Positions 1 to 52,539 of a DNA stretch of 64,000 nucleotides are shown one piece after another (the stretch's first letter is position 1; each line of letters opens with the position of its first letter). The position numbers and the translations under genes are program-made. The notes below the pieces were generated by a model that did not search any database, had not been told where the DNA came from, and saw only the letters and a program-made list of their open reading frames with translations. This DNA is from Azolla caroliniana (lineage: Eukaryota; Plantae; Polypodiophyta). The DNA lies in assembly GCA_043228905.1 (NCBI GenBank), contig JBHGNT010000001.1, positions 8,804,001 through 8,868,000 on the forward strand, in the 5' to 3' direction.

Positions 1-495
1 AGGGCATTGGGTGCATGATGATGGTGCCGTCCGCCTGGGATAAGATGGTTGTTGAGAGACAAGCTCAACATCGGCCAGATCGGTTGAGAAGGTCGAGGAC
101 CGGATCGGTTGGGACCGATCGGTTAGGCCAGACCGGTGCATAAAACGGATGCGTAAACCAGTACGCAAACCGGTGCGTAGGAAGGCCGTATCGGTCCGTA
201 AACCGAAAGGCCGTTAGAAAGATATTCCTCGTAAGAAATAGTTTTGGGAGTAAGAGTCGAGGCTCATTTATGAGCAGTCAAGTACTATCAATACTTGTGT
301 CAGCCTGATTGTCCGGGCTTGTATAAAAGTGCTCACTGAGCACATCCTATGTACAGATTTGAGTATTATTTTTTGAATTAAGTTCTTGTGTTTACTCTCT
401 CTCTCTGTCTCTCCCGTGCGTACTATGCAAACCTAAGCTTTCCATTAAACCTGCGTCTTCTGTTGTTCGGTTTCCTATATTGCTTCCGCACGACA
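1..495 (+). mobile_element. LTR-like fragment (3' part; 5' end outside the window)
   Basis: TATAAAA near 322, CT-rich tract at about 396-415, ends ...CCGCACGACA at 495 next to gypsy RNase H sequence. No TSD can be tested. Confidence 0.45.
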
Positions 496-1131
496 TTCTT
501 TTCAATGGCGCCAATTGCGAAGTCAGTGGCATCGGTTTCGACTTGGAAGGGTCTTGCGGGGTCAACATGTAGAAGCAGGGGGCTAGTGATGAATGTGTGT
601 TTGAGTGAGCCGAACACATTTTGTGCCGTCTAGGTCCATAAAAAGGGACTACCTTTGTGGGTGAGGGCGATAAGAGGTTGGGCTAGGGTGGAAAACCCCT
701 TGATGAAGCGACGGTAACAATTTGCGGAGCCGAGGAAGGATTGCACATCTTTAAGTTACCCACTCCTGAATGACTGAGACCTTCTTCATATCCATCGTGA
801 TGCCAGTGGGCGAGGTGATGTAGCCCAAGAATTCAATCTAGGTACGGTCGAACTCATATTTCTCACTTTTGGCATAAAGGTCGTGCTCCCGAAGTTTACC
901 AAGAACTAATCGGGCATGGCGGGTGTGCTCCGCCATGTTTAGCAAAAAACTGAGAATATCATCAAGGTAGATGACCATGAAATGATCAAGATATTCCCGG
1001 AATATATCGTTCATCATATGCACTGAAAAACAGTTGGGGCGTTAGTAAGGCCAAAAGGCATTACCTTGTATTCGAAATGCCCATACCTTGATCGGAATGC
1101 AGTTTTCCATTCATCATCGGGCTTGATGCGT

Positions 1132-2367
1132 TGTCGCGGCAATCCGCACTTGTGGGTGACCACACTCTGTGAGCTACTTAGAGCTCCTCTATATGTTGGA
1201 CGGTCGAGCCTTCGACGAAACTCGTGGGACTCGGTCCCCGTTGTAACGGTCGACTTCTTCGACCTCGCCCATCTTGATGTGCCGCCTCTTGACTCTCCTT
1301 CTCGAAGTCTTCAGCCTCGAACTCCATCCTCCCTTGCCGCCCTTCACATCGAGTTCACCAAAGATGGCGCAGAAATCCGCGCTTGCATGTCGGATCCAGG
1401 TGGGACCATCACGGTCATGGACCAGGAGAGGAGGAGCTTCCGGAAACCGGAAACCTTTGGAGCTTGCCGCGTTGCCGGCCGGTTCCGGATGCTTTCCGAA
1501 AGCAGCCCGTAAATGCATGGAGAGAGAGATCGCGCGCACTTGTCTGCTCGGCCCTTCTGCCCGTATGTATAAGGGCCTCAAAAGAAGCACGAGCCATGGC
1601 CCGGTTCACCACGCCCGCACCCACACATATATACACTGGTTACGACTGACACTCCTAACCAGTTAACTACACACGCACACGCACTCAAGGCCCCTAACAC
1701 CTACGCTGCCTCCTAGGGACACACACGCATGCATACACGCTGACTCCACACAGAACCTAACGACGACCTCTCATCGCCAAGCTGCCAATCGGGAGCACAC
1801 GGGCTCACCACGCGGATGGGGCCTTGCACGATAGAGAGGGGAACCTAACGCTGACCCTTCAAGCACACGGGCTCGTCTTGAACAGCCACACTGCAGAGAC
1901 AGCTGAGGCACTCAGACAAAGATGTGGTGAGGAGAAGCAAAACATAGACAGAGAAAGACAGAAGACAGACCGCGCTCTGCCGTAGACGGACCCACACACA
2001 CACAGCAACGAAACCCTAACAGAAACAGAAATACCTTCTCGAAGATCAAAATAGAAACAACTTGTATTCACTAGGAAACAAATATGGAACCTCAAACGAG
2101 GAACAGACTATTTGGGACCCAATTGGTGGGAACCCTTGTACAAGAAGCGTGCCCTCCCTTTTATAGAACAAGGTGAGGGTCGCGTGACTATGTGGGATAA
2201 ATCCCGTGATACATGGGATCCTCCGTCCCAACTTAATTGTCGTTCGGCGCCATAAAAGGCCCCCATATTCCCTATACAAGTTTTACAAGAGTGGGTGCAC
2301 ATGGTGCGCCTTGCCGATTCCTCCTATATCTTCTGGTTTCTCACCGTAGCCCAGAATCTTCACGACA
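1132..2367 (-). mobile_element. Solo LTR with 4-bp TSD (GCGT on +, ACGC in element orientation)
   Basis: Element-oriented termini TGTCGTGAAGATTCTGGG...GCCGCGACA. GCGT at 1128-1131 and 2368-2371. Removing the element plus one TSD copy restores the RT frame (LVRIKP). TATAAAAGGGAGGG on minus at 2152-2165. Confidence 0.9.
1194..1627 (+). mobile_element. Possible GC-rich insert nested in the solo LTR
   Basis: TGTTGGA at 1194 to ...CACACA at 1627, flanked by TATA on both sides. Composition differs from the flanks. The termini are imperfect and the TA context makes the TSD ambiguous. Confidence 0.3.
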
Positions 2368-2975
2368 GCGTACCAGATGGTACACGCCATGTAGATCAAC
2401 GTTGGAGAAGACACATGCATCTTGTCTCCTTTTTCATCTCTATCTTCATGTTCTCATGTCGCTCACAACTTCTAGAGTTCCTAGCCTCGTCATTTCTAGC
2501 TCCAAGTTCGTAGCCCGTCGCTCGTAGCCCCATCATCCGTGCTTGGTGTGTCTGTGATAGTTTGAATCCCTTCCAACTAGAAATATCACTCGTCTTCATC
2601 ATCGCCCTTGCTTCTAGTGTTACCATCGTCACAATCCTTGCTTCCAGAGTTGTCTTCGTCAACATCCTTGGTTTTAGAGACGCTTCCTCCTCATCATCAT
2701 CTTCGTTGCCTTGTCTTCGACATCATCATTTTCAGCACCTCTTGTTGTCTTCATCAAACGTTACTTCGCCCAACCTTCATCGTCATCAACACTACTTTGC
2801 ATGGTCTTTCATTATCATCATTGTTCCGCCCTCGTCATTGTCATTGTCAGCATCTATAGGTATAATTTTGCATCACGATTTTGGCAAAGATTGATTCTGA
2901 TTGCTCACCTTCACAATTCCGGTGGGGGTTACAACCTGTGATCACCTTGAATGTAATCTAGGTGAACACACATAT

Positions 2976-3560
2976 TGTTAGGAATGTGTCCCTCCTATGG
3001 GTGCAGCCGACTGGTCCTGTCGAGGGCTGACAATCAAAGACATAGAGAGTCAACAGTGGGAGAGTCCAAGTCAAAGACACGACCGACTAGTCGGGCCAAC
3101 CGGATGATCAAAAATAAGGCCGACTAGTCGGGCCGACTAGGCAATCGACAATGGTGTCGACTAGTTGAACCCCATTGGTTGATTAACTATTATCGCTATA
3201 ATAGTAATGACAGTAGCAGTGGCTACATTTGTAAATAGCCCATATAGTGTATAAGTATAAATACACTTAGGGCAAAGAGAGAAATGTGTAGAATAGAATA
3301 GTTGTTAGCCTCTGTAGTTTGAGGGCGACAGAGAAGAGAGTGTGTAGGAGCGAGGTGGAACAACGCCATAGCTGAGTGAGCTTAGACGACAAGAGCCCTG
3401 TGAGGTTGTTACACTCTAGTGAGAGAGAGTTTTGTAATCTCATCGTTTTGTATATCCATTGTATCGTGAAGACCTCTTCTCCCGTGGTTTTCCCTGTTTA
3501 GGATTTCCACGTAAAACTGTGTATTTGTTGTGTTTGTTGTGTTTTTGTCTTTTCGCGATA
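2976..3560 (+). mobile_element. Truncated copia-type LTR related to the 31075-36418 element
   Basis: Starts TGTTAGG. Shares GTAAATAGCCC..AAGTATAAAT..CTTAGGGCAAA (3231-3276) and CCCGTGGTTTTCCC..TAGG.TTTCCACGT (about 3481-3512) with that element's LTR. Confidence 0.65.
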
Positions 3561-3561
3561 T

Positions 3562-3858
3562 TGTCAAGTAGACACTCAGTCTTTCTCACGACTCCAAGAG
3601 AACGAAACTCATCAAATATTTATACAAGTTCTGAGATTGAATATCTCTAGAATATACCTAAGAAATATCTCTAGAATATACCCGTCTAGAATATACCATA
3701 TCATATTTCTAGTATATACTAACGACTAGAATATTATGAATGTTCTATATGCTAGACTATTCAATGTTAAACCATATACAATTTACATGTAACTTAAGGG
3801 TTAGTAAATGGTTTATCTAATACAAAGCATTGGGTGTGTTATAAGTCTAGATATGACA
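3562..3858 (-). mobile_element. Short AT-rich LTR-like fragment
   Basis: TGTCA...TGACA ends, TATAAATA on minus near 3616, repeated TCTAGAATATACC units at 3641-3700. No TSD found. Confidence 0.4.
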
Positions 3859-6800
3859 TTCTCCGGGTGAACTCTCGAAACGACACAAGCGCGCTCGACA
3901 CAACCATTGAGTTGATAGATGGCGTGATAGGCCAGTTCAATGGCAAAGACACAATGAGTTATCTGGAGGCCTATCGGGTTGAAATGATGATAAGGGATAT
4001 TCCGGAGGATACGACAATTAGCCATATTCCCTCAGGTCGTTACGTTGAGCATCCACACTGAGGTGCTCGAGGTGCAAGCAAACTGTCGTAATTGGGAACA
4101 TTTCGAGGGGAAGCTCCTCAAAAGGTATGGCTTCCATGACTCACTCCAGTTGTCAAAGAAAGAATTTATGGATTGGGTCGAGAGCCCTGACAAAGGTCGG
4201 CATACGTCGACGCTTCTTCAAGAGTTAGAGAAGCGATTCGCACGACTCTTGACACTAGACTGGACCGTGCTCAATACGAGCAAGGTCTTATTGTTTGTGA
4301 AGTCGGTTGACTTGTGGTCGCGAGAAGGTGGGTCTCCTCTTGGAGATGGATGAAGGGCTCACGGCTAACTGGGCCATGGTTAAAAGAGTGTGCAACCGTT
4401 TCGATAAACGACACGATTAGAACAACGTTGGAACGTCATCGACCGGCCCGTATGCCGGGAAGAAGCCGGATGAACCAATTCCTACATGATCGGAAGAAAC
4501 AAGGTGGTGACTCCACTCGGGCTCAACTCTGGCCAACGTGGTCGTTGGACCGGTTGGGGGCGTAGCCCTAGAGGAGTTGTCGAAGACGGTGCATGATCTT
4601 CAGATCGGTCAGGCTCGGAGGGAAGGCGGCGGTCAATTGTGCAATCGGAGCCCTCCGATTGACTAGAGGTGCATGTGGTGCGATGTCGTCGGCCACATCT
4701 GGAGAGAGTGCACCGATTTTGCCAAATCACTCAAAAACAATGTTGTGTACCTCTGGAACGGACAGGTGCACGCATGCGACACGCAAAGGCCCCTTGAGGT
4801 GAACACCAGACGAGGCGGAATGAAGAGGATAATGGAGGAATCCGTAGTCCAGAATGTCGAGGCCATTCACTACTCGGTGTCGACAAATCCGGGGAGATGA
4901 AGAGAAGGGTGTCGGATCCGAAAGCAATACCGGACCCTGACTACTTGTGCTAGAGGGCCTATCCAGCGTGAGGCCAAGGAAGAGGAGGGTCCAAGAGGGC
5001 ACCGGATGGAATGATCCAATAGAAGAGAAAATCAGCTTTGTGGAAGCCGCATGCTAGAACTACGAGGTTCTGGTAGATGATAAGTGGGCCGGAAAGGCCG
5101 GAGGGGTCGGTCCCTCGAACCGGTATGAGACTCGGAGTGGGCCGAAGAAGGATGATTGAAGCCCAACCGGCTCACAGGAGAAGATAAAGTTGTTGAGCTT
5201 TCGGTTGCTCGGAGATAGAGAGAGCGACGAACCTATTGAAGGTCTTGGAGGAACGAATCCTCAACAGCCGGGTGGAACTTGCCCTAAGGGAGATGCAGCC
5301 GGGTGGAGAACTCACCCTGAGGGAGGTGCTCGGGATAGCAAAAAAGGAGTTCCACGATTCTATCGTCGACCTAGTGAAGAGAAAGTGGCCCACATTGAAG
5401 AGGTGACGAGGGTGAAGAGTTTCCGAACAATCACTTCCTGAAGCTGCACTAGCCAAAGAGCGACAACAGAGACTCTAATCCGGATCGGGGATGTGAAGGA
5501 GCCAATAGTAGCAATGATCGACCGTTGATCGACCATGGATCAGAAATCAACCTGATGTCGATGGACTTCTATAAGAAGGGTTAGTGGCCGATCAACACCA
5601 AGCACAGGTGGGAGATTCGTGCGGCGACCGGAGCCACGGAGGAGCTACACAAAGTATGCCTGAATGTCCGAGTGAAGGTCGGGGATGTTGAGATTGACTA
5701 GCACTTCTTCATGCAAGAGAAATCCTCCCATCCGGTGATTCTCAGAGAACCTTAGATTACAACGTTGCGGATGGAGACAAAGGTGTTGGACAACAGTTCA
5801 ACCTACGCGAGGGTGAAGAGTCAAGACAGTCGACACTTCGTCCAGTTCTTGACGGTCTGGCCGAACCACGAGTGGAATCAAGATTCTCTCGGTGGCGAAG
5901 GCCGAGAGGATTTTTAGAGAGGGCTATCAAGGCGTGGAGCCATGATAGCCCGGAGATCCAGAAGAAACCCCACACTTGTACCATAGAAAGGAAATTTTGG
6001 TTCTCCGAAAGCAGAGGTTGTACGATAACCGGCATCAGTGGCGGGGAGAAAAGACAAGTTGAAAGGTGATTGAAGGTGTGCGGAGCCTTGGACCCCAAAG
6101 ACTCGATAAGCGCGCCATGGAGGCAGTCTCATTCGATGACACCTGCAGGGAGATGGAGATGGTGATCAAAGAAGGCCTAAGCAAAGATAGGATGATTCCG
6201 GTCAATCCGGTTGAGATGTACGAATTCATCGCAGACTTCGGAAAGATGATCGGGGTGGGACGGACCGCCCAGGTGGACACAAAGTATAAGACTGTGGACC
6301 AGAACGGAAGACAGTTGGGAGCGGATAAAAGGGGTTGCGACCGACCCAAGCCTACGAGATCCAGCTGGCATAGGGCACCGGTTCACCAAAGAGACATTGC
6401 GGAAGCTCAAAATCGGTGGGGTGGCTTCCTACTGCCGGCAGAGGAGGACCGGTTTCGCAAAATGCTCGAGAGGCACGGGAAAGCCTTTGCATTCTCGCCG
6501 GGGGAGGTTGGGTGTGTCACTCGATGATTGTAGAACTAATAGTGATCTTCACAGTACCGCATGTACCAGGAGTCTCAAACCGATTTCGGTACTTAGAGCT
6601 CACATCCCGAAGTTGATGGAGCTTCTCAAGGAGAAAGTGGAGATGGAAATTCTCAAACCGTTGAGTGTCGCTTATTCGAATCGATGGTTTACGGTGCCAA
6701 AGAAGAACGGCACATTGTGCTTTGTTCAAGACCTGCAGCCGGTCAACAAGGTGACCATTCGAAATGCAAGAGTCGGTCCCACAATAGATGAGTTCGCGGA

Positions 6801-7339
6801 GGCCTTCGCCGGAAGGTCCATCTACTCAGTCGGAGACTTGTATTCTGGGTACGACCAGTTCCAACTAGTCGTGAAGAGTAGGGATATCACAACGATGTGA
6901 ACCCCTCTTGGCCTAGTTCGAATGTGTGTACCTTGCCTCAGTGTGGAACAAATTTAGTGGCGCGCATGGTGAATGAGATGAAGAAGGTGCTGAGGGACTA
7001 CATCCCGGAAATCACCATGTTGTTCCTGGACGACATTCCAATCAAGGGATGTCTGGAGGAAGCAAAGGACGAGTCGATAGGAGCAGATGGATGCCAGAAG
7101 TTTGTCGTGGACCACTTCTCCGATTACGAGAAGATATTGCAGAAGCTTGAGGGCGCTCAACTTACCTTCTCCGGGGAGAAGTCGACTTTTGAACAATCGG
7201 AGGTCCTGGTGGTCGGTCACCTATACGGACCGTATGGCCGGAAACCGTCTACGGCAAAGGTAGAAACCATCTCGGCAATGAGAGAAGAGTGCAGGTTGTT
7301 CACGGAAGTCTGACAATTCTTGGAAGCGTGCACCTTGTA

Positions 7340-7423
7340 CCACATATGGATCCCACATTACGCTGTTGTGAAGATTTTCGGCCACATATGGATCCCACAT
7401 TACGCTGTTGTGAAGATTTTCGG
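7340..7423. repeat. Exact 42-bp tandem duplication spanning an insertion junction
   Basis: CCACATATGGATCCCACATTACGCTGTTGTGAAGATTTTCGG at 7340-7381 and 7382-7423. Confidence 0.95.
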
Positions 7424-8515
7424 CAATGGTGTGAAAATCGCGTGGAATGTGCACATGAATGAATGGGGCGATGGTTACACTCGTACGTTAGCATGTTGTA
7501 AATATAAATGAAATGAGAACCTCTAAGGCCTAGTAGCATTTTCGTGCATACCAAGGGGTGGAAGTAAGGTTTGAACGTTGCACCTCCAAGTTAAGACACA
7601 ATTGACTTACCATTAGGGTAAGTTGTTACTTGTTATACTTTCATCATTGTGTTTTTCACATGTAAATGCTCATACATTAGAGCTTGAATGACGGACATGG
7701 TCATCATGCATCACATGCGATGCATGGGCACCAAATGGCAATCATGCATTGCATGCATCTCATGCATTGTATGCATCTCATGCATTGTATGCATGTCTTA
7801 CACCCTCACATGCACCATATGCATGGGGAAATCTATATAAGAAAGAAAGAAAGGGAAAAGAAAGGTGATCAATCTATGCATCAATCAAGCTATGTATTGA
7901 ATCAACATCTTAATATTAAAAAAACCTACTTATCTTATTGGTGACTCGTCTTTTTTCTCAACATTGATGTCAAGGGTTCAAACCCGGAATTGGAATTTCC
8001 ATCCATCTATCTATCTATCTTAAACACTTCAGCTACTACAATTTCATTTCGTGTGGTCATTCACTCTATCTCTGGAATTCTCATCAAGAAGGAAATAGTA
8101 CTTGCAAAAATCATTTCGTCGTCGTCGTCGCCCGCTAAATGTTGCACACCACCACATTACCGCCGCCTACACATCAATCCACCGCACCGCTGATTCTAGT
8201 TCAGGTGCGTCTTCAACAACAAAGAACAACACAACAATAAACCTAAAATGGTTAATTCATATCCTCCATAACCACTAGCAGATAGAGGTCCGGTGCTTGT
8301 CAGCGCCTGTTTGACACGCACATCGCAACGTTTGGCATGTGTCGTTGATTCTAGTTCGGGTGCGTCTTCGACAACAAAGAATAACACGACAATAAACCTA
8401 AAACGGCTAATTCATCTCCTCCATAACCACTAGCAAATAGAGGCCCGGTGCTTGTCAGCGCCTGTTTGACAAGCACATCGCAACGTTTGGCATGTGTGTC
8501 ACGCGCCACGCGACA
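7406..8515 (+). mobile_element. Solo LTR with 4-bp TSD ACGC
   Basis: TGTTGTGAAGATTTTCGG...CACGCGACA. ACGC at 7402-7405 and 8516-8519. Removal restores host HIWIPHYAHIVEPLYGLL. TATATAA near 7834. Confidence 0.88.
8191..8497. repeat. About 155-bp tandem duplication inside the solo LTR
   Basis: TGATTCTAGTTC...CAACGTTTGGCATGTGT starts at 8191 and again at 8346, with scattered substitutions. An 18-bp x3 ATGCATTGYATGCATCTC repeat lies at about 7743-7797. Confidence 0.9.
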
Positions 8516-9510
8516 ACGCGCATATTGTTGAGCCGCTCTATGGCTTGCTGAAGAAATGTTGGAAGTTCGAATGGACAGGGGAACTAACGGAAGCAATCCG
8601 GAGACTGAAGGAGATGCTAACATCGGCACCAGCTCTCCGAAAAGCGATGTACGAGAAGGACACTCCGGTCTTCGTAACGGTAGACACAAGTCCAACTGCA
8701 ATCGGGTGGGTCATCAATCAAGAGGATGAGACTAACACAAGAGTCCCCATCCGGTTTGGTGCAAAGGTGCTTAGTGAGCGGTACCAAGGATACGCCCAAG
8801 TTAAACGCGAACTTTAGGGTATTGTTTCGGCAGTTACAGCCGATAAAGACTACTTAATCGGGACGGAAGCAGTAATCGAGACAGACTACCTACCGATTCT
8901 CGATATGGTTTCCGGATGCACAACTATGAATTTGGCTATGCTCAGATGGATCCCGTACATCAAGTCCCTGAACCCAGAGATACAACACATCTCTGGGAAG
9001 GACAACACCATGGCCGATATGCTTTTAAGAGCACGGTTCAACAACGAGGATGGCATGGTGTCAAAAGACGAAGAAGTTGGCGAGAACTTCTTCGAGTCAG
9101 CTCGAATGTCGGCGAACAAGCGGAGCACTCTGACCCTGAACGAGTTCGACGAGAACGACTATGACGGGGAGTGGCTCCAGATCGGTAAGTCCGTAAGCAC
9201 GATGGCACCTAACGCAACATGGATGAAGGAAGAGACGAACTGAATCCAGAAAAAGGGCTACAGATTCTTCCTGAAGGACGGCAAAATCGGGCGACTTCCG
9301 AAGAGGTGGAACGACACTCCGCTCCGGGTGGTGACAAAGGAGCCTGGAGGAACCATCGATGCTCGCGTCGGAGTTCCACGAGAGTACTTTGTCCGGACAC
9401 CGGGGAATGTGGGCCACATTCGAGAAGCTTAAGGAGAAGTATTGGTGGCCGAGAATGAATCGTAACGTCCACCACTTCGTGACGACATGCGAGAGTTGTA
9501 AGATACATTT

Positions 9511-9660
9511 TGGACGTACTCACACTATCCCTTCGGGCCATTTGTGTAATTAGCATAAATGGTAGTTGCCCTAAGTCGGTCACTATATATAGTGACCTTG
9601 TAACCTTCTTGTAAGGTTGGGTGTTGTATTATTGTTTCTATTGAATAGAAAGTCTTTTGT

Positions 9661-9694
<34 letters not shown>

Positions 9695-12600
9695 AACGAC
9701 CTAGAAACTGTCATACGCAGGTATTCAAACACCAATCGAATGCTTCTTGATCTTCCGCATAGACGACCTCGTCTCCAACATCTGGTATCAGAGCCTGCAC
9801 AGTAGTCGGTCCTTCAATCTGCTGTCGGCCGTCGTCTCAGCCTGCACAGCATTCGGTTTCCTGCGTCATTCGAAGAAGAGAGAAGAAGAAGAGAAACGAG
9901 GCTTGCATCTCATCGCGTTAGATCATCTTCGCTTGGAGTAAGCCAGCAGGTTGTACTCTGTCCCTTGTGATCGTAACCGCTCGAGGTGAAATCCCCTTGT
10001 GCAACATTGACACGATCGTGCTCCACCCGGTTAAACGGCATCCGAAGAGGTAATCAAACGCCGCTCATTGTAACCACTCGGTGCAGATCGGTCTTAAGAC
10101 AACAACCCCAAATTCGTGCTTCATCTGGCTGATCGACATTCGGGAGGATCAGTTGGATCCGTCTCTCTCGTTGCTGCAGTCAACCGAAGCAGAATCGGTC
10201 CAGATAATCGGTTTCAATAATCGGTATTCGGCATATATATCCGAAACGAACCGGGCTCACTCCGACTCGGCAACATTCGGGAAGACCAGTCGGTTCTGTC
10301 CCTCAAGCTACCGGAGTCAATTCGAGCAAGTTCCGAAGCCGAACCGACTCGGGTTCAAATCCGACTAGAACGATATCGGGTGAGCCAACCGGCTGCACTC
10401 CAACAAGGTTCGTAGTCAACTCCGAACCGAGCTCCGTCAACCGAAACCAAATTTGATGGCATCAACATCCGGCTCGTCAGAAATGAGTCTACGCAAGTTC
10501 GATGGATCGAACTTCAACTTCTGGAAGGAACAAATGCAGGACTATCTCATAGTCAAGGGGCAAATCGATCCCATCGAAAATGAAGAACCTCCAGAAGGAT
10601 ACAAACCAATTGAGTGGCAGAAGCTGGACAGAATCGTCCGCACCACGATTCGGATGCACCTATCGGAATCGGTATACTTTACGGTGCAATCGTGTACGAC
10701 AGCATTCGAACTGTGGAAAACACTGTCGGACACTTACGAAAAGAAGGTCGCCGCAACAAAGATGTTTCTGATCCGGCGCCTCTACAACTTGCGGATGAAA
10801 GAATCCGACTCGGTTCAAGCACACCTCAATGAGTACGAAAGCATAAGCTCCCAAATCTCGTCACAGGGGACGGCAATCGAGGATGAACTCAGAGCAATGA
10901 TACTCATGAGTAGCCTTCCCTCATCATGGGAAACTTTCGTCACAACCGTGTGCAACGCGTCAACCACGGCTGTTAAATACTCCGAAGTCACGAGCGCAAT
11001 CCTGACCGAAGCAGCTCGGAGAAAGTCTTTCGCCAAAGACTCAACAGACGACGCTTATGTAGTACAAGGTTCGACAGACCGATCGAACATACGAGGAAGA
11101 GATTCCTCACGGCCGCCGAACAATCCGCGAAGACGGAGCCAGTCACGGGATAACCGAATCTGCAACTATTGCAAGAAACCCGGACACATCAAAGCCGACT
11201 GCCGCGCACTCAAGAACAAGAACAACAAGAAGAGTGGCCGGCATGAGGAGATCAATTACGTCAGCTTCTCAGCTGATGTGCTACCAGACGACCCGAATAT
11301 ACTATCAATCGAAAATCCAGTCGGATCAGAAGTCCTACTCACGACTGAAGAGTCGAGCACATGGCTCTTAGATTCGGGCGCGTCATTTCACGTGACTCCT
11401 CATCGATCCCAATTTCGGCAATATACGATCCGTCACTCCGACTCAGTTCGAGTCGGCAACTCACAACACTGTGACATCATCGGAATCGGCACAGTAGAGC
11501 TCAACCTTGCAGGTGGCTCTACACTTGTACTCCACAATGTCCGACATGTACCCGAGCTCTCAAGGCCATTGATCTCAGTCGGACAACTAGATGAAGACGG
11601 CATTCGTGCCGGTTTTTCTTCGGGAGGGTGGACACTCCACAGGGGGAACCTCCTGCTTGCTAGAGGACCCAAGATACACTCACTATATCCGTTACATGTT
11701 ACGCTCAGAGAGGGTAACCTGTTTTTGGTGGATATTCCTGTGTCATCACTATGGCACAGAAGATTAGGACACCTCAGCAAGGCCGGCATTACGCATCTAT
11801 CTAGAGCCGGATACATCCCTAAACTATCCTTCTCCGACCATCAATTCTGCGAGCATTGCCAGTATGGCAAACAAGCAGCCGCATCACACCCGACATCAGC
11901 ACCAAGAGAAACGAGACCTCTCGATTTGGTCCATTCGGACGTCTGTGGCCCAATGCCGCATCAGTCTCTAGGCGGTGCCTCTTACTTCGTCACTTTTATT
12001 GACGATTCGACTCGCAAGGTGTGGGCTTATCCGATTCGCACCAAAGATCGGGTCTTCTCGATCTTCTCAGATTGGCTCGCTATGGTAGAAAATCAAACCG
12101 ACCGAAAACTGAAATGCTTTCGGACCGACAATGGGGGAGAGTTCAAATCCGAAGAATTCGTCAAATTCTGCCGACAACGCGGCATCCGACGTGAGTTTAC
12201 GGCACCACACAGTCCGGAGCAAAACGGGATTGCAGAGCGAATGAATCAGACAATCCAAGAACGGATAGTTTCCATGCTCCAACACTCCGGACTGTCGGAT
12301 GGCTTCTGGGCAGAGGCTCTACTCACGGCAGTACACATAATCAATATGTCGCCAAGTAGACCTCTAGGACTTCAAATTCCTCAGGAACTATGGATCGGCA
12401 GTAAGCCGAATTACGACAAGCTGAGGATCTTCGGATGCGAGGCGTACGCCCTTATTCCGAAAGATGATCGCCGAAAACTTGCACCTCGGTCCAGGAAATG
12501 CATTTTCCTCGGATATGGATCCGACGGCGAAATGGGATACCGACTCTGGGATCCCGAACGCAGACAAATCGTCCGAAGTTCGGACGTTGTGTTCAACGAG

Positions 12601-14833
12601 TCGGCTATGAATCCATCAGTCGAAAAACCGATCGAAGTCCGAAGGGTAACATTTTCCGATGTGCCGACCCTTCAAGAAGGCCCCGCTCTCAACACACGGT
12701 CAGCTTCACGGGTAGCTGAACCTTACACTACCGACTCGGACAACTCCGACTCGGCACAGCAGAACAATCCGCTTTCGGACCATCCGACCTCGATACCCGA
12801 TGCGACCAGTCCAATCATACCTCGACGATCCGAGAGACTGTCGCAACCTCCGGAGAGGTATTCTCCTGGAATTTTCTTCACCGACGCCGGCGAACCGACG
12901 TCTTACGAAGAAGCATCGACATCTGTCGATTCCGCCACCTGGCATCTGGCGATGGAGTCGGAAATGCACTCCATTCGGGCAAACAAGACTTGGGATCTGG
13001 TCGAATTACCTAGGAACCGACGTGCTCTTCCTTGCAAGTGGGTCTATCGACTAAAAGAGACGTCTGATTCGACCACCCCAAAGTACAAGGCCAGATTAGT
13101 TGCGAAGGGCTTCCGACAAGAATATGGCGTCGACTTCGACGAGATTTTTTCACCAGTGGTGAAAATGACAACCCTTCGTTTTCTACTCGGCGTAGTGGCA
13201 GCCGACAACCTGGAGCTGATTCAGCTAGATGTCAAAACAGCATTCCTCCATGGTGATCTTGAAGAGGAAATTTATATGGAGCAGCCAAAAGGCTTCGTTG
13301 CTACTGGCCAAGAACATCTAGTCTGCCGACTCAGGAAGAGTCTATACGGCCTCAAACAGGCACCACGACAATGGTACAAGAAGTTCGACGACTTCATCCA
13401 ATCGATCGGCTTCTCAAAAAGCGATGAGGACCATTGTCTCTTCACCAACACAGCTCAAGATGGATCACCCATCTTCCTCATCATTTACGTGGACGACATG
13501 CTAATCTCTGGACGCCACGCGGGCGAACTTGCCGATCTCATTCGGCAACTGCGGTTGAAGTTTGCCATGAAGGACCTCGGTCCGGCACGACACATACTCG
13601 GCATAAAGATTAGTCGGCATCGCGATAAACGACATCTTTTTTTGTCTCAGACCGACTATATCCGACGTGTCTTGGAACGCTTCAACATGCAATCAGCCAA
13701 ATCTGCTTCAACCCCGCTCCCAATGAATCTTCGGCTCTCTCAGCGAGACTGCCCGACATCCGGCCCGGAGGGGGAAGATATGAAGTCGGTACCGTATGCA
13801 CCGGCAGTCGGCTCCCTTATGTACCTGATGGTCGCGACACGGCCTGATATTTCTCACGCCGTAGGAGTCGTTAGCAGATTTATGCACAATCCTGGCCGAT
13901 CGCATTGGAACGCAGTCAAGCATGTGTTCAGATATCTGGCTGGCACAAAAGACCATGGCATTCTTTTCGGTCCGAACCGAACCTCAGGCGTAGTCGGTTA
14001 CACCGACTCGGACTTCGCCGGCTGTATAGACAGTCGGAAATCAACAACCGGATACTGCTTCAAATTCGGCAATGGAGCAATTTCGTGGAAGTCGAAACTT
14101 CAGGAGTGCACAGCGACCTCAACGACCGAAGCAGAATATGTAGCTGCGTCCGACGCAGCAAAAGAAGCCTTATGGCTCGGTCGGCTGGCGCACACGTTTC
14201 GGCAAGTCGATCATGACTCGGCCCCAGTTGTCTATAGCGACAGTCAAGGTGTTGTTGCCTTGTCGAAAAATCCGGTTCACCACAACGCCTCCAAACATAT
14301 CGACGTTCGATATCACTTCGTTCGGGACTGCGTCATCTCAGGGAAAATCGGTCTAGAGAAAATATCCACAACCGACAATGTCGCAGATGGAATGACCAAG
14401 TGTCTTTCGGCAGACCGCTTTCGGTCTCTTCGGCATCAGATGGGCGTAACGACAAACCAGTCCGGTTAGAGCCGGACACAGCGCAGGATGGTTTTCGACA
14501 ACCGACATCAGTTCCTTAATGATCGGCTTCAACTCTTCCGACCCGACCAGTTCGGTCTTCTGCCTTTGGACCCTGCCGACTCGAACAAAAACTGATATGT
14601 CCGAGAACCTAAGTTTATACCTGTAATCTTAGATAACCCATGTATACGCCCATTACGGGGGAGTGTCGAATACAAGTGTATAATGGACGTACTCACACTA
14701 TCCCTTCGGGCCATTTGTGTAATTAGCATAAATGGTAGTTGCCCTAAGTCGGTCACTATATATAGTGACCTTGTAACCTTCTTGTAAGGTTGGGTGTTGT
14801 ATTATTGTTTCTATTGAATAGAAAGTCTTTTGT

Positions 14834-14867
<34 letters not shown>

Positions 14868-14953
14868 AACGACCTAGAAACTGTCATACGCAGGTATTCA
14901 AACACCAATCGAATGCTTCTTGATCTTCCGCATAGACGACCTCGTCTCCAACA
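9511..14953 (+). mobile_element. Young full-length Ty1/copia element (copia-1)
   Basis: 5' LTR 9511-9780 (first 20 bp missing) and 3' LTR 14664-14953 look identical over 270 bp. PBS TGGTATCAGAGCC (tRNA-iMet) 9783-9795; PPT ACGGGGGAG before 14664. Confidence 0.97.
10456..14469 (+). CDS. Copia gag-pol polyprotein (1337 aa from the first ATG)
   Basis: Uninterrupted ORF: CNYCKKPGHIKADC knuckle, LDSGAS protease, WHRRLGH/CEHC, integrase D-D-E (HSDVC, TDNGGEF, AERMN), RT YVDD, RNase H TEAEY/ADGMTK. Confidence 0.96.
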   Translation: MASTSGSSEMSLRKFDGSNFNFWKEQMQDYLIVKGQIDPIENEEPPEGYKPIEWQKLDRIVRTTIRMHLSESVYFTVQSCTTAFELWKTLSDTYEKKVAATKMFLIRRLYNLRMKESDSVQAHLNEYESISSQISSQGTAIEDELRAMILMSSLPSSWETFVTTVCNASTTAVKYSEVTSAILTEAARRKSFAKDSTDDAYVVQGSTDRSNIRGRDSSRPPNNPRRRSQSRDNRICNYCKKPGHIKADCRALKNKNNKKSGRHEEINYVSFSADVLPDDPNILSIENPVGSEVLLTTEESSTWLLDSGASFHVTPHRSQFRQYTIRHSDSVRVGNSQHCDIIGIGTVELNLAGGSTLVLHNVRHVPELSRPLISVGQLDEDGIRAGFSSGGWTLHRGNLLLARGPKIHSLYPLHVTLREGNLFLVDIPVSSLWHRRLGHLSKAGITHLSRAGYIPKLSFSDHQFCEHCQYGKQAAASHPTSAPRETRPLDLVHSDVCGPMPHQSLGGASYFVTFIDDSTRKVWAYPIRTKDRVFSIFSDWLAMVENQTDRKLKCFRTDNGGEFKSEEFVKFCRQRGIRREFTAPHSPEQNGIAERMNQTIQERIVSMLQHSGLSDGFWAEALLTAVHIINMSPSRPLGLQIPQELWIGSKPNYDKLRIFGCEAYALIPKDDRRKLAPRSRKCIFLGYGSDGEMGYRLWDPERRQIVRSSDVVFNESAMNPSVEKPIEVRRVTFSDVPTLQEGPALNTRSASRVAEPYTTDSDNSDSAQQNNPLSDHPTSIPDATSPIIPRRSERLSQPPERYSPGIFFTDAGEPTSYEEASTSVDSATWHLAMESEMHSIRANKTWDLVELPRNRRALPCKWVYRLKETSDSTTPKYKARLVAKGFRQEYGVDFDEIFSPVVKMTTLRFLLGVVAADNLELIQLDVKTAFLHGDLEEEIYMEQPKGFVATGQEHLVCRLRKSLYGLKQAPRQWYKKFDDFIQSIGFSKSDEDHCLFTNTAQDGSPIFLIIYVDDMLISGRHAGELADLIRQLRLKFAMKDLGPARHILGIKISRHRDKRHLFLSQTDYIRRVLERFNMQSAKSASTPLPMNLRLSQRDCPTSGPEGEDMKSVPYAPAVGSLMYLMVATRPDISHAVGVVSRFMHNPGRSHWNAVKHVFRYLAGTKDHGILFGPNRTSGVVGYTDSDFAGCIDSRKSTTGYCFKFGNGAISWKSKLQECTATSTTEAEYVAASDAAKEALWLGRLAHTFRQVDHDSAPVVYSDSQGVVALSKNPVHHNASKHIDVRYHFVRDCVISGKIGLEKISTTDNVADGMTKCLSADRFRSLRHQMGVTTNQSG

Positions 14954-15579
14954 CACCCGACGTACCCACCAACCAATCACTTCAAGTGGATGGTCGGGTT
15001 AGTGACAATGCCGATGGGGGTAGGGAAAATGTGGTACTTGGTGCTTGCAAGAGAGGACCTAACGAACCAGGTGGAGGGCCGATCATTGCCGAACAAGACA
15101 ACTACATCCGTGTGCCGATTTTTTATTGAAGACATGATTTGCCGGTATGGGTGCGTTGAGAAGATCGTGGTCATCTAAGGAGAGTTGGACGCATGACAAG
15201 CCGAGGAGCTATTCGACTGACTAGGGGTCAAGCTTTCCCTCACGTCAACATACAATCCGGAAGTGAATGGGAAGGTCGAACGAGGGCATGGGCTGATCGT
15301 CAAAGCAATAGTGCAGGCATGCGATAAACGAGTCCGAAATTGTCTGAGGCTTCTTCTGTATGTGTTGTGGGCCAATCAGACTACGCACAGTTCAGTGACC
15401 GGGTACATGTTGGTCGAGCTCATGTTCGGACAAAAGCTGATCAGGTCAGTGGAGAGGACGATAGCCTCGTGGATACCGGTCAAGTGGGCGGAGGAGATGA
15501 GCTGGGAGGAATTGTTAGTTGCACGGATTCGACAACTCGAGCAGAGGCCAGAGGATGTGGAACAAGTGAGGGTGAGCTG

Positions 15580-15907
15580 AGTTCGGGAAGAAGGTGGAGT
15601 CCTCTATTCATGTAGGAAGGCCGTGTGCTCCCGATCAGAGGCCACCATTCTCTGTGTGTGCGCGTGTGTAGGGCTCGAAGCTCCGTCATCGCCCGTGTCT
15701 GGTTGTAATCTTGCCTACTTTTCCTCTGTTAATCCTTATTTTGCCGATTTTATCCTTGTGTTCAAGTGTTCCCTCATTCTCGTAGTTCATCTCCGGTTTG
15801 TTGTGCCTAAGCCCATGTGCTCGTCCGTTGAGCTCGGGCTACTAATTCAGAGCAGTATACGTCTTTGAATAAGTCTTGTGCTTTAGATTAAGGTGTTACT
15901 TGTGACT
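15580..15907 (+). mobile_element. LTR fragment directly after the truncated gypsy integrase
   Basis: Contains GCCGTGTGCTCCCGAT (15620-15635), shared with the solo LTRs at 1132-2367 and 49980-50841. Ends near TTGTGAC, possibly a deaminated CCGCGAC. Confidence 0.5.
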
Positions 15908-49695: not shown

Positions 49696-49979
49696 AAAGA
49701 GAGAGAGAGTGTGTGTGTGTGTGAGGGAAAAAGAGATAAAACACAAGTTTGAGGGGTAACTCTTCACTTCTATCGTCCTCGTTCCATTTCATGCCCCATG
49801 GGTGGGGTTTATATACTACATAATGTGACCGTTACATATTCTTACACATGCACACAAATGGGCACGTGTACACACACAGTCGTCTCACACTCACACATTA
49901 CACATTACACACCCACACTATATTCTTTTACCCTTAACCCTCTTGTACATCCCATGTGGGTAACACCTGGCACACCCGT

Positions 49980-50841
49980 TGTCATGGAGGATTCCGGACA
50001 TAAGGAGAAAAGGGAGCTAGGTTCACATGAACGGGGGTGTGCACGGATGCACAGGAGACAATTTGGGGTGTACCAAAATGTGTAAATATTATAGTGTTAG
50101 TTTAAGTGTTGATGAGTACTAGGGAGTGTGATTCGATGGGTACTTTAATGTCCCATAGATAGAGAGGAATAAAAGAAGATATGATGCGAGAGAATCGAGG
50201 AAAGGATGAAGGACAAAAAGTGACTATCTTAACAATATGATGTAATAGTCTCTCTCACTCCTTCAACTATAAAGGGAGGGAGAGAATATTGAGAGAGGAA
50301 TCCCAGTTTTGGAGAACAAAGTGTTGTCTGACCGAGCTCTGCAGACTTCTGTTTCTCTCATTCTCAATTTCAGTTTCTGGTTGTGCTGCGAGGCCTCTGT
50401 TTCGCGCTGGTAGCCCATGTGCTCCCGATCGGAGGCTCGCTAGCATCAATGTATGCGAGTGTGAGGAGTTAGTAGTGTTGTTGTCGGTCGGGTCCGATTG
50501 TAATTCTTTCCCCACTGATTAATAGATTATTATGTTGCCTCCTTGTTCTCGGTTTATCTCCCTTCATGTTGTGTTCTTATCACCATTCCTTCTTGATTTC
50601 GTTTGCATGCCCGAGCGTGTGAGCCCACTGTGCGCCGTCTGACGCTGCTCCAGAACCGGTAAAGCGTATCGCGCCCGTGCGCTCCCCATAAAGCGTTTGA
50701 AAACTTGTTTGGATCAGATACTTGTCTGGACCGCGCTTTGCCGAACTTATCCAGATAGCCCTTCTTCAGTCACTGGCTCCTTGGTCTAAGACCCCGATGG
50801 TCTTGCCATGTTCCAACACTTTCGCACAGAAATCCGCGACA
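49980..50841 (+). mobile_element. Solo LTR with near-perfect 4-bp TSD (CCGT / CCTT)
   Basis: TGTCATGGAGGATTCCGG...TCCGCGACA. TATAAAGGGAGGG at 50268-50280 and AGCCCATGTGCTCCCGAT at 50412-50429, both shared with 1132-2367. Flanks at 49976-49979 and 50842-50845. Confidence 0.8.
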
Positions 50842-52539
50842 CCTTGGGACAGTGCATCACACGTCAAACCCATATGCCCATGCCAAAAAATCGTCGACTA
50901 GAACTCCATTGGTCTTCTCTTCTCTCATCAGTCGGAACTCCTTTCACTGGAACTCTTCTCTTCGATCGGAACATGCTTGACATGAACCTTCCCCTTCTGT
51001 CAACGCACAACACTAACACCAAGCGTTGCAATTGGATCACACACCAATCAACATATTCTCTTTGGCATTTTCTTTGGGTTGTAAAAATTGGGTTTAGTGT
51101 TGTTCATTATATTACATGTAATGACAATGTTGTATTTTTTCATTAGCTTACTTTCATTCTTACTTCATGCATGAGAACCCTCTTTCAACCTTCTCAGGAA
51201 CCATATTCTTATGGTTATTGCATCAGGACCTACCTAAAGGTGAATCAAACCCTGAATTGAATACACGGGTCTCTTCATGAATAGTTGTGCAATGGATTCG
51301 AGAATCCGGGGAAATTTCCTCCAAAGCACACCCATCCAATCCGATAGTCGTTAATGTCCTAAGTGTGGGGAATTGAGACTCAGCGACTGAAGCAACTTAT
51401 CCGACCATCCAATCATGACCGGTTGTTGCCTGATGGTCTAACAACTTGAAAATGGGTGAAGAAAAGTGTTGCTTTGCTTTGCTTTGCTGGATTCACAGAT
51501 TATGGCTAGAAGATGATATTGCCTTCTTGCATGATCCTTCTGAATTTTACCAACGGAATTTCGAAATTCTAGCATTCAATTCTTTCCGCAATCTGAGCCG
51601 CATTAAAGATTATCGTATAATAATCCATGAATATTCAGGCCTTCTTGAAAGTTCAAAAGAAGAACTTTGGTAGCCATTTATATTACACTTTTTACTGCTT
51701 CTTCTTCTTCCGCAGTTTTCTTGCGCTTCATGAAGAAAAGGTGTTGTTTGAAATTGTAGCCTAGAAAATGAATCTCGTATACAATGCTGTGATTACTTTA
51801 TATTGATAAAAAGTCTAGAGAACAATCTGAAATGGGAATACATAAATAATTGTCGGTCATAGAAACGGAAACACATAAATTGTGCAAAAAGTCGCTTCGG
51901 TTGAAATTCCACCACCCACTCAGAGTTTAATTGAAAATTCCATTTCATTATTAAATTGGTTTAGAGTTGATTGTCAAACTCTAGTTAGGAAGTCAGGTCA
52001 GAAGAAAAATATAGCGGAATTACACCGCTTATAGTTTGCACAAGCAAATCCAGACATAGGGAGATCAAATCGAAAGCAATGTAATACTCCATCCTAATAG
52101 AGAGCCTAAAAGCATAACCATTTGATCTCAATAAATGATTTGTAATATTTTTGGGAAGTGTATAAGGGTTCAGATACAAAACGATCAACCTACAATTCGG
52201 ATATGAAACGATCATATTGAGAAACATAGAGGAGGTGCCACCCATCCAATCTAGTTGGATGGTGGACACATGATACAATAGAGTGTGAAAATGTTATACC
52301 ACAATGTCTCCACAAAAGCTTTTGCCATGCTAGTTTCTTGGTCACAAGGACATGCAATGTTACTCGACATATTATCATCATGGGAGGAGAATTACAACTT
52401 GTCAGAGTATCGGGTAAAAAAGGCATGGTGGATTTGTCAAGAAGGAATTCCCTAACATGCCAAAAAAGTCATCAAGGTGAAATGCATTCGATCGCCTCAT
52501 GGGGTTCACGGAAGTCTTGTAAGACCAATGGTGTATCGA

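What the first reader, a model, noticed from the sequence alone, without database searches (positions are those of the whole stretch)
1128..2371. Clan of solo LTRs with 4-bp, CpG-centred target-site duplications (possible sequence-selective integrase)
Seen: three solo LTRs with different interiors share termini. 1132-2367(-) is TGTCGTGAAGATTCTGGG..CCGCGACA, 7406-8515(+) is TGTTGTGAAGATTTTCGG..ACGCGACA, and 49980-50841(+) is TGTCATGGAGGATTCCGG..CCGCGACA. The first two have the same exact 4-bp TSD, ACGC, in element orientation (empty sites ggTACGCat and atTACGCgc), and the restored host reading frames fix the length at 4. The third has CCGT/CCTT. Known: plant LTR retrotransposons usually make 5-bp TSDs with weak sequence preference, as the two testable copias here do; 4-bp sequence-biased TSDs are typical of insect errantiviruses (gypsy, ZAM). 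Inference: a plant gypsy lineage whose integrase cuts with a 4-bp stagger around CG, which would steer it into CpG-rich transposons; all three copies sit inside other elements. Only three sites support this.
Basis: partly seen in the sequence, partly recalled or inferred. Interest (0 to 1): 0.8.

Follow-up and report, generated by a model that had tools for sequence, protein, structure and literature searches.

The report
Fern Phygy-type retrotransposons inserting at CG
These three stubs belong to a large family of jumping genes, in what is likely a fern genome, that insert almost only at a CG pair and duplicate four bases, a habit already published for the moss Phygy lineage, to which they likely belong.

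Summary
All three elements have 4-bp target-site duplications, confirmed on uninterrupted sister copies of each host. Of 51 paired elements elsewhere, 34 have an exact 4-bp TSD, 47 are within one mismatch, none has a 5-bp one, and 33 of the 34 exact ones are NCGN. Genome-wide, 968 of 1,204 outer ends of one subfamily are followed by NCG, against 4.1% CG background. A full-length member is a 7.9-kb Ty3/gypsy element with a tRNA-Trp primer site and no detected chromodomain or archaeal RNase H. These are the traits listed for Phygy (4 bp, NCGN, tRNA-Trp; PMC6317226). A tree against labelled Phygy sequences could not be built. What is added: a likely water-fern host, a sharper motif (VCGB, ACGT favoured), and evidence that the CG rule alone accounts for insertion into CG-rich repeats. 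Correction: 1132-2367 is an internally deleted element, not a solo LTR. The scan noted Phygy-like nesting in this genome and NCGN TSDs in a fungal genome before.

The parts
1128..1131 (-). TSD, downstream copy (ACGC in element orientation)
   Evidence: overlap 4 on 7 of 8 sister host copies
1132..1147 (-). last 16 nt of an LTR, joined to the internal remnant at a 5-6 nt microhomology (inferred deletion junction)
   Evidence: sister L002 matches query 1-1221 and then diverges
1148..1344 (-). internal (leader) remnant, 85-89% identical to the sequence after the PBS in sister elements
1345..1360 (-). worn primer-binding site complementary to the tRNA-Trp(CCA) 3' end, after a 4-nt spacer (1361-1364)
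1365..2367 (-). 5' LTR of element A (1,003 bp)
   Evidence: sister LTRs end at the matching position before the PBS
2368..2371 (-). TSD, upstream copy (ACGC in element orientation)
447..1131 (-). host of A: RT/RNase H remnant of a different gypsy lineage (sister L103 is 25% identical to the clan's RT); about 50 nt more lie at 2368-2420
7340..7423 (+). 42-nt tandem duplication spanning B's left junction; holds TSD copies at 7360-7363 and 7402-7405
7406..8515 (+). solo LTR B (1,110 bp, with a 155-nt tandem duplication at 8188-8497)
8516..8519 (+). TSD, downstream copy ACGC
3867..15571 (+). host of B: decayed member of the same clan (RT 60-79%, integrase 62-71% identical to L071), also interrupted by a copia at 9511-14953
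49976..49979 (+). TSD, upstream copy CCGT
49980..50841 (+). solo LTR C (862 bp), older and more diverged subfamily (sisters 69-81% identical), inserted in a dispersed repeat of untyped class
50842..50845 (+). TSD, downstream copy CCTT (one change from CCGT)

Best explanation
The three stubs are remnants of one clan of non-chromovirus Ty3/gypsy retrotransposons, likely Phygy, that duplicate 4 bp centred on CG, likely because the integrase itself cuts with a 4-bp stagger and selects a central CG step. Shown: 4-bp TSDs, central CG, a symmetric VCGB consensus with ACGT favoured, shared tRNA-Trp primer site and polypurine tract, and a gag-protease-RT-RNase H-integrase full-length member. Inferred: the integrase bends the target at the central pyrimidine-purine step, as 4-bp retroviral integrases do, and adds base-specific reading that narrows YR to CG. 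Also inferred: autonomous members supply the integrase to the many non-coding subfamilies, B and C arose by LTR-LTR recombination, and A by a microhomology deletion. The bias towards CG-rich repeats follows from the motif and needs no second targeting device.
For: TSD table: 34 of 51 exact at 4 bp, 47 of 51 within one mismatch, 0 of 51 at 5 or 6 bp even with one mismatch; 33 of 34 exact TSDs NCGN; 49 of 51 have CG on at least one side. Genome-wide: 1,955 ends, 751 followed by the PBS spacer, 968 of the other 1,204 (80%) followed by NCG; background CG 4.1% in 400 kb. ACGT is 14 of 34 exact TSDs against 5.1% of background NCGN sites; T at position 1 is 3-4 of 47 and A at position 4 is 0-1 of 47 against about 31-32% in background. 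8 of 13 single mismatches are C>T or G>A at the CG itself, as expected from later decay. L071: 7,859 bp, ACGC/ACGC, LTRs 98.5% identical, RT, RNase H, H2C2 and rve domains, no Chromo or RVT_3 hit. PBS matches tRNA-Trp(CCA) genes of this genome. Sisters of B and C carry integrase, RT or gag pieces of the clan; A-type sisters share the PBS and PPT. Phygy table row: 4 bp (100%) NCGN, tRNA-Trp 81%, 7,656-9,968 bp, no extra domain. PFV consensus VYRB with an unstacked central YR (PMC4422553). CG-anchored null fits flank CG density (5.2% observed, 5.7% expected, lower-tail P about 0.10) and repeat status (35 of 51 against 256 of 400).
Against: No labelled Phygy sequence was available, so clade membership is by traits only. 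Named relatives were liverwort (Riccia), fern (Adiantum) and one fungus (Smittium), none labelled Physcomitrium. Phygy was defined as specific to P. patens, whereas this host looks like a fern. Four of 51 pairs have two mismatches at 4 bp and one exact TSD is CCAT. In the looser set of unpaired 5' junctions only 111 of 206 had CG; I attribute this to false termini but did not check them one by one (unpaired 3' junctions: 77 of 95). A-type full-length sisters showed no gag, RT or integrase match of their own, so their link to the clan's integrase rests on termini, PBS, PPT and TSD. No biochemical evidence that the integrase alone sets the motif.
Confidence: 0.85

Rival explanations
1. The clan is a separate non-chromovirus lineage (sister to Phygy or an unnamed fern/liverwort clade) that shares the 4-bp NCGN and tRNA-Trp traits by ancestry or convergence.
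For: Host is likely a fern while Phygy was defined from one moss. TatI also has 4-bp TSDs and tRNA-Trp. Ginger1 DNA transposons reach CCGG/CCGT with a gypsy-like integrase (PMC2836005 passages), so the habit can recur.
Against: All six testable Phygy traits are met. TatI's defining archaeal RNase H upstream of RT (PMC4408406) is not found: no Pfam hit at E<=1 and no PDB hit at E<=10 in the 220-aa protease-RT stretch, and no conserved aspartates in its first 130 residues. Phygy is also reported from a liverwort (PMC12885004 passages).
Confidence: 0.1
2. The CG preference comes from reading methylated CG or from a host factor bound at methylated repeats, not from plain sequence reading by the integrase.
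For: TSD CGs decay by C>T/G>A (8 of 13 single mismatches), so these sites were likely methylated at some time. All three window copies sit in repeats. The clan has no detected chromodomain that could otherwise explain repeat targeting.
Against: A null of 'any CG' already fits flank CG density and repeat status. Methylation after insertion explains the decay. The symmetric preference at positions 1 and 4 matches that of 4-bp retroviral integrases (PMC4422553 section 6), whose local preferences were largely independent of chromatin (abstract).
Confidence: 0.12
3. The 4-bp CG pattern is an artefact of boundary calling or of three hand-picked sites.
For: Only three sites in the window, one of them mismatched.
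Against: Sister-copy overlaps give 4 at all three sites; 0 of 51 pairs fit 5 bp; 968 of 1,204 genome-wide.
Confidence: 0.01

Closest known systems
Phygy clade, non-chromovirus Ty3/gypsy (Neumann et al. 2019, PMC6317226; passages and Additional file 5 read)
   Same: 4-bp TSD, NCGN motif, tRNA-Trp PBS, length 7.7-10 kb for autonomous copies, no chromodomain, no archaeal RNase H, coding region filling the interior.
   Different: Host here is likely a water fern, not P. patens. The motif resolves to VCGB with ACGT favoured. Many short non-autonomous subfamilies are present. Tree placement not tested.
TatI (PMC6317226 Additional file 5; PMC4408406 passages)
   Same: 4-bp TSD and tRNA-Trp PBS, non-chromovirus, non-seed plant.
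   Different: TatI carries an archaeal RNase H upstream of RT, not found here; no NCGN preference is listed for it.
Selgy (PMC6317226 Additional file 5)
   Same: 4-bp TSD, no extra domains.
   Different: tRNA-Ala PBS, 4.4-6.7 kb, no NCGN preference listed.
Prototype foamy virus and other 4-bp retroviral integrases (PMC4422553; abstract and sections 3 and 6 read)
   Same: 4-bp stagger, central YR step, T disfavoured at the first and A at the last TSD position (VYRB); PFV integrase aligns to the clan's integrase at E about 1e-21.
   Different: Their preference is weak and accepts any YR; here it is nearly all CG, and the PFV Ala188-equivalent column is Glu/Asp.
Ginger1 DNA transposons (PMC2836005, passages read)
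   Same: Gypsy-like integrase, TG termini, 4-bp CG-centred TSD (CCGG 75%, CCGT/ACGG 24%).
   Different: DNA transposons with TIRs and no RT; CCGG rather than ACGT is the top site.

Membership tests
Phygy | 4-bp TSD | tested here: met
   34 of 51 exact, 47 of 51 within one mismatch, 0 of 51 at 5 bp
Phygy | NCGN target motif | tested here: met
   33 of 34 exact TSDs; 968 of 1,204 genome-wide ends
Phygy | tRNA-Trp primer-binding site | tested here: met
   PBS in sisters of A, B and C is complementary to tRNA-Trp(CCA) genes
Phygy | Ty3/gypsy order gag-PROT-RT-RH-INT filling the interior, no extra ORF | tested here: met
   L071 frames run 1877-7566 between PBS and PPT; one element examined in full
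Phygy | No chromodomain and no archaeal RNase H | tested here: met
   No Chromo or RVT_3 hit in L071, P0003 or P0007; only about 27 residues follow the SH3-like region; Pfam lists of the 120 listed RT homologues show neither; one weak RVT_3 hit in P0026 (E 0.048) overlaps its ordinary RNase H
Phygy | Length 7,656-9,968 bp | tested here: met
   L071 is 7,859 bp; non-autonomous copies are 3.7-5.7 kb
Phygy | RT/RH/INT fall in the REXdb Phygy clade | not testable with these tools
   REXdb sequences (Additional files 1 and 3 of PMC6317226) could not be read; no homologue carried a lineage label
TatI | Archaeal RNase H upstream of RT | tested here: not met
Selgy | tRNA-Ala PBS | tested here: not met
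   PBS is tRNA-Trp
Chromoviruses (Tcn1, Galadriel) | Chromodomain after integrase; self-priming or tRNA-Met | tested here: not met
Insect errantiviruses (gypsy, ZAM) | env gene (feature recalled, not from a call) | tested here: not met
   In L071 the integrase frame ends at 7566 and the 3' LTR starts at 7642, leaving no room

The most novel reading that the evidence does not exclude
The Phygy-type integrase is a near-obligate CG reader, conserved from mosses and liverworts to ferns and perhaps fungi, that senses methylated CG directly through its conserved acidic target-contact residue, giving a chromodomain-free route into silenced repeats.
Probability: 0.1. Interest if true: 0.75.

Novelty: new member of a known kind. 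Interest (0 to 1): 0.25.

Why it matters
The headline trait is in print, though I found it only as one sentence and one table row of PMC6317226 (searches), and found no mechanistic study. This genome offers thousands of sites (3,636 hits to the 5' terminus pattern against 26 for the control) and copies with identical LTRs. That makes the one known sequence-selective plant LTR integrase easy to test, and suggests the lineage extends into ferns. Because the TSD starts as CG, paired TSDs also record CpG decay after insertion.

Tried and rejected
5-bp or 6-bp TSD readings: rejected. First pairing pass gave 60 pairs, 29 exact at 4 bp and 0 within one mismatch at 5 bp, but included internal LTR ends with a degenerate PPT or PBS and internal look-alikes of the 5' terminus; I tightened those three rules after seeing that output, without using the TSD, giving the 51 pairs. 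The first sister test for site A found no left-flank hit and was redone with ungapped scanning. Extra targeting beyond the CG rule: no support; the nulls use 40 stretches of 10 kb taken at round coordinates, 15 of them from the first 16 Mb of C1 where most pairs lie, and only downstream flanks. TatI: rejected on the missing archaeal RNase H. A labelled P. patens homologue was sought and not found. No tree was built because no labelled references were at hand. No structure prediction, complex prediction or read mapping was run. No tRNA gene lies in the window. Passages of PMC7466625, PMC13469084, PMC8282616 and PMC6839031 added nothing on Phygy target sites or ferns.

Full report
Observation. 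A (1132-2367, minus) and B (7406-8515) have ACGC on both sides, matching at 4 bp and not at 3, 5 or 6. C (49980-50841) has CCGT/CCTT. To fix the length without trusting TG..CA, I mapped each flank separately onto uninterrupted sister copies of the host. The two flanks overlap by 4 nt in 7 of 8 sisters at A, 5 of 5 at B (two loci overlap each other) and 18 of 20 at C. C's sisters read CCGT in 2 and CTGT in 10, so the left copy is the original. The two testable copia-type neighbours have 5-bp TSDs.

Corrections. A is not a solo LTR. Sister LTRs end about 1,003 nt in and are followed by a 4-nt spacer and a primer-binding site. A has the same site in worn form, then about 200 nt that are 85-89% identical to the sisters' internal sequence, then the last 16 nt of an LTR. 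A short shared word lies at the junction, so a microhomology deletion is the likely origin (inference). B's left junction is tandemly duplicated over 42 nt. B sits in the RT-RNase H region of an older member of its own clan. A sits in the RT of a distant gypsy lineage (sister RT 25% identical to the clan's). C sits in a dispersed repeat whose class I did not determine.

Genome-wide test. The 5' terminus pattern has 3,636 hits against 26 for the reversed control. I fetched DNA around the first 100 listed hits on C1, 30 loci each, and paired ends by rules that do not use the TSD. A first pass gave 60 pairs with mis-called internal ends (29 exact at 4 bp, none at 5). With tightened PPT, PBS and terminus rules 51 pairs remained (42 solo-type, including A itself, and 9 full-length). 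Of these 34 have an exact 4-bp TSD, 47 are within one mismatch and none fits 5, 6 or 7 bp even with one mismatch. 33 of 34 exact TSDs are NCGN and 49 of 51 have CG on at least one side. Among unpaired junctions 77 of 95 3' ends but only 111 of 206 5' ends had CG; the latter set likely includes false termini, which I did not check singly. An independent whole-genome count for one subfamily's LTR end (not the exact end of A, B or C) gave 1,955 hits, 751 followed by the PBS spacer, and 968 of the remaining 1,204 (80%) followed by NCG. CG makes up 4.1% of positions in 400 kb of unbiased sequence.

The motif is narrower than NCGN. ACGT is 14 of 34 exact TSDs but 5.1% of background NCGN sites. T at position 1 (3-4 of 47) and A at position 4 (0-1 of 47) are depleted against about 31-32% in background. 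The consensus is the palindrome VCGB. 8 of 13 single mismatches are C>T or G>A at the CG, as expected from methyl-cytosine decay after insertion.

What the clan is. L071 is a 7,859-bp element with ACGC/ACGC, LTRs 98.5% identical, and gag, DUF4100-like, protease, RT, RNase H and integrase pieces in Ty3/gypsy order, broken by stops. The PBS is complementary to this genome's tRNA-Trp(CCA) genes. No chromodomain or archaeal RNase H was detected. The 220-aa stretch between protease and RT, where TatI keeps its archaeal RNase H (PMC4408406 passages), has no Pfam hit at E<=1, no PDB hit at E<=10 and no conserved aspartate in its first 130 residues. Sisters of B carry integrase remnants 47-74% identical to L071, and sisters of C carry gag, RT or integrase pieces. 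A-type sisters share PBS, PPT and TSD but showed no coding match of their own. Named relatives are liverwort (Riccia, up to 69% in RT), fern (Adiantum) and one fungus. A host phytochrome is closest to Pilularia (89%), then Adiantum and Ceratopteris (86%), against 77% for P. patens, so the host is likely a water fern (one gene, no tree).

Comparison with what is known. Neumann et al. 2019 (PMC6317226; passages and Additional file 5 read) report 93.4% 5-bp TSDs among plant elements and state that, except for Phygy with its preference for NCGN, TSD sequences are highly variable. Their table gives Phygy as 4 bp (100%), NCGN, tRNA-Trp 81%, 7,656-9,968 bp, no extra domain. Every trait I could test is met. 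Tree placement could not be tested because Additional files 1 and 3 were too large to read, and they bear directly on membership. Jedlicka et al. 2019 (PMC6911290, passages) found GC-rich centres in 4-bp TSDs and Phygy-in-Tcn1 as the commonest repeated nesting in P. patens. Phygy is also named in a liverwort genome paper (PMC12885004, passages). Searches for Phygy (18 papers listed), NCGN with retrotransposon (3), and fern with non-chromovirus terms (6) showed no fern report and no mechanistic study in the listings and passages I saw; figures and subscription papers are not covered.

Mechanism. Shown: 4-bp duplication, central CG, dyad symmetry. Inferred: a 4-bp staggered cut with a sharp bend at the central step. 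For PFV the consensus is VYRB, the central YR is unstacked, and all four 4-bp retroviruses disfavour T first and A last (PMC4422553, sections 3 and 6), which matches the outer positions here. Flexibility alone would also admit TA, CA and TG, which are each more common than CG in this genome, yet only 1 of 34 exact TSDs is non-CG. Base-specific reading is therefore likely. The integrase aligns to PFV and Ty3 integrases. The column read from that alignment as equivalent to PFV Ala188, a target contact, is Glu or Asp in 181 of 184 homologues; this is a candidate only. The steering idea holds in weak form: flank CG density is 5.2% against 4.1% at random positions (P 0.004) and 5.7% at random CG sites (lower-tail P about 0.10), and repeat flanks are 35 of 51 against 191 of 400 and 256 of 400. 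No second targeting device is needed. Methyl-CG sensing is not excluded but has no positive support.

Verdict. Real, well supported, and already described for Phygy. The additions are a likely fern host, the VCGB refinement and the null-model result. Interest 0.25.

Noticed in passing
G000:C8:17.80-17.82 Mb (L225), C16:4.99-5.11 Mb (L226), C5:10.105-10.112 Mb (L227): tRNA-Trp(CCA), the clan's primer, lies in tandem arrays: 62 pattern hits in the genome, with 8 genes in 9.9 kb, 6 in 4.5 kb and 7 in 8 kb. Whether this is linked to the clan's expansion is unknown.
   Followed up: partly
L064 (-) 673-6353, L070, L063, L062, L069: Young non-autonomous subfamily (LTRs up to 100% identical) with one open frame from PBS to PPT, up to 1,428 aa: gag-like first 230 aa, then Gly/Glu/Ala/Arg-rich repeats, no Pfam hit, no RT or integrase.
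   Followed up: partly
clan LTR-PBS junctions in L061-L170: The spacer between LTR end and PBS is 4 nt in most copies and 5-8 nt in some subfamilies.
   Followed up: no
L071, L073, L080 and related loci: One subfamily's LTR ends in an inverted copy of its first 12 bases, like a short terminal inverted repeat.
   Followed up: no
window 9511-14953: Copia with a 1,361-aa open frame inserted in the integrase of B's host; no TSD is recognisable at the called ends.
   Followed up: partly
window 15571-15700: The integrase of B's host stops abruptly and runs into sequence that resembles the middle of a clan LTR, perhaps another deletion junction.
   Followed up: no
window 51175-51300: 126 nt that match several places on small contigs (C27, C75, C152, C241) at 99% identity.
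   Followed up: no
L050/L066, L011/L288, L029, L290: Clan members are often nested in other clan members, including inside LTRs.
   Followed up: no
window 44-49 kb and 60-64 kb: Two diverged copies (71-92% in matching blocks) of a long fragmented coding repeat, possibly LINE-like; not typed.
   Followed up: no
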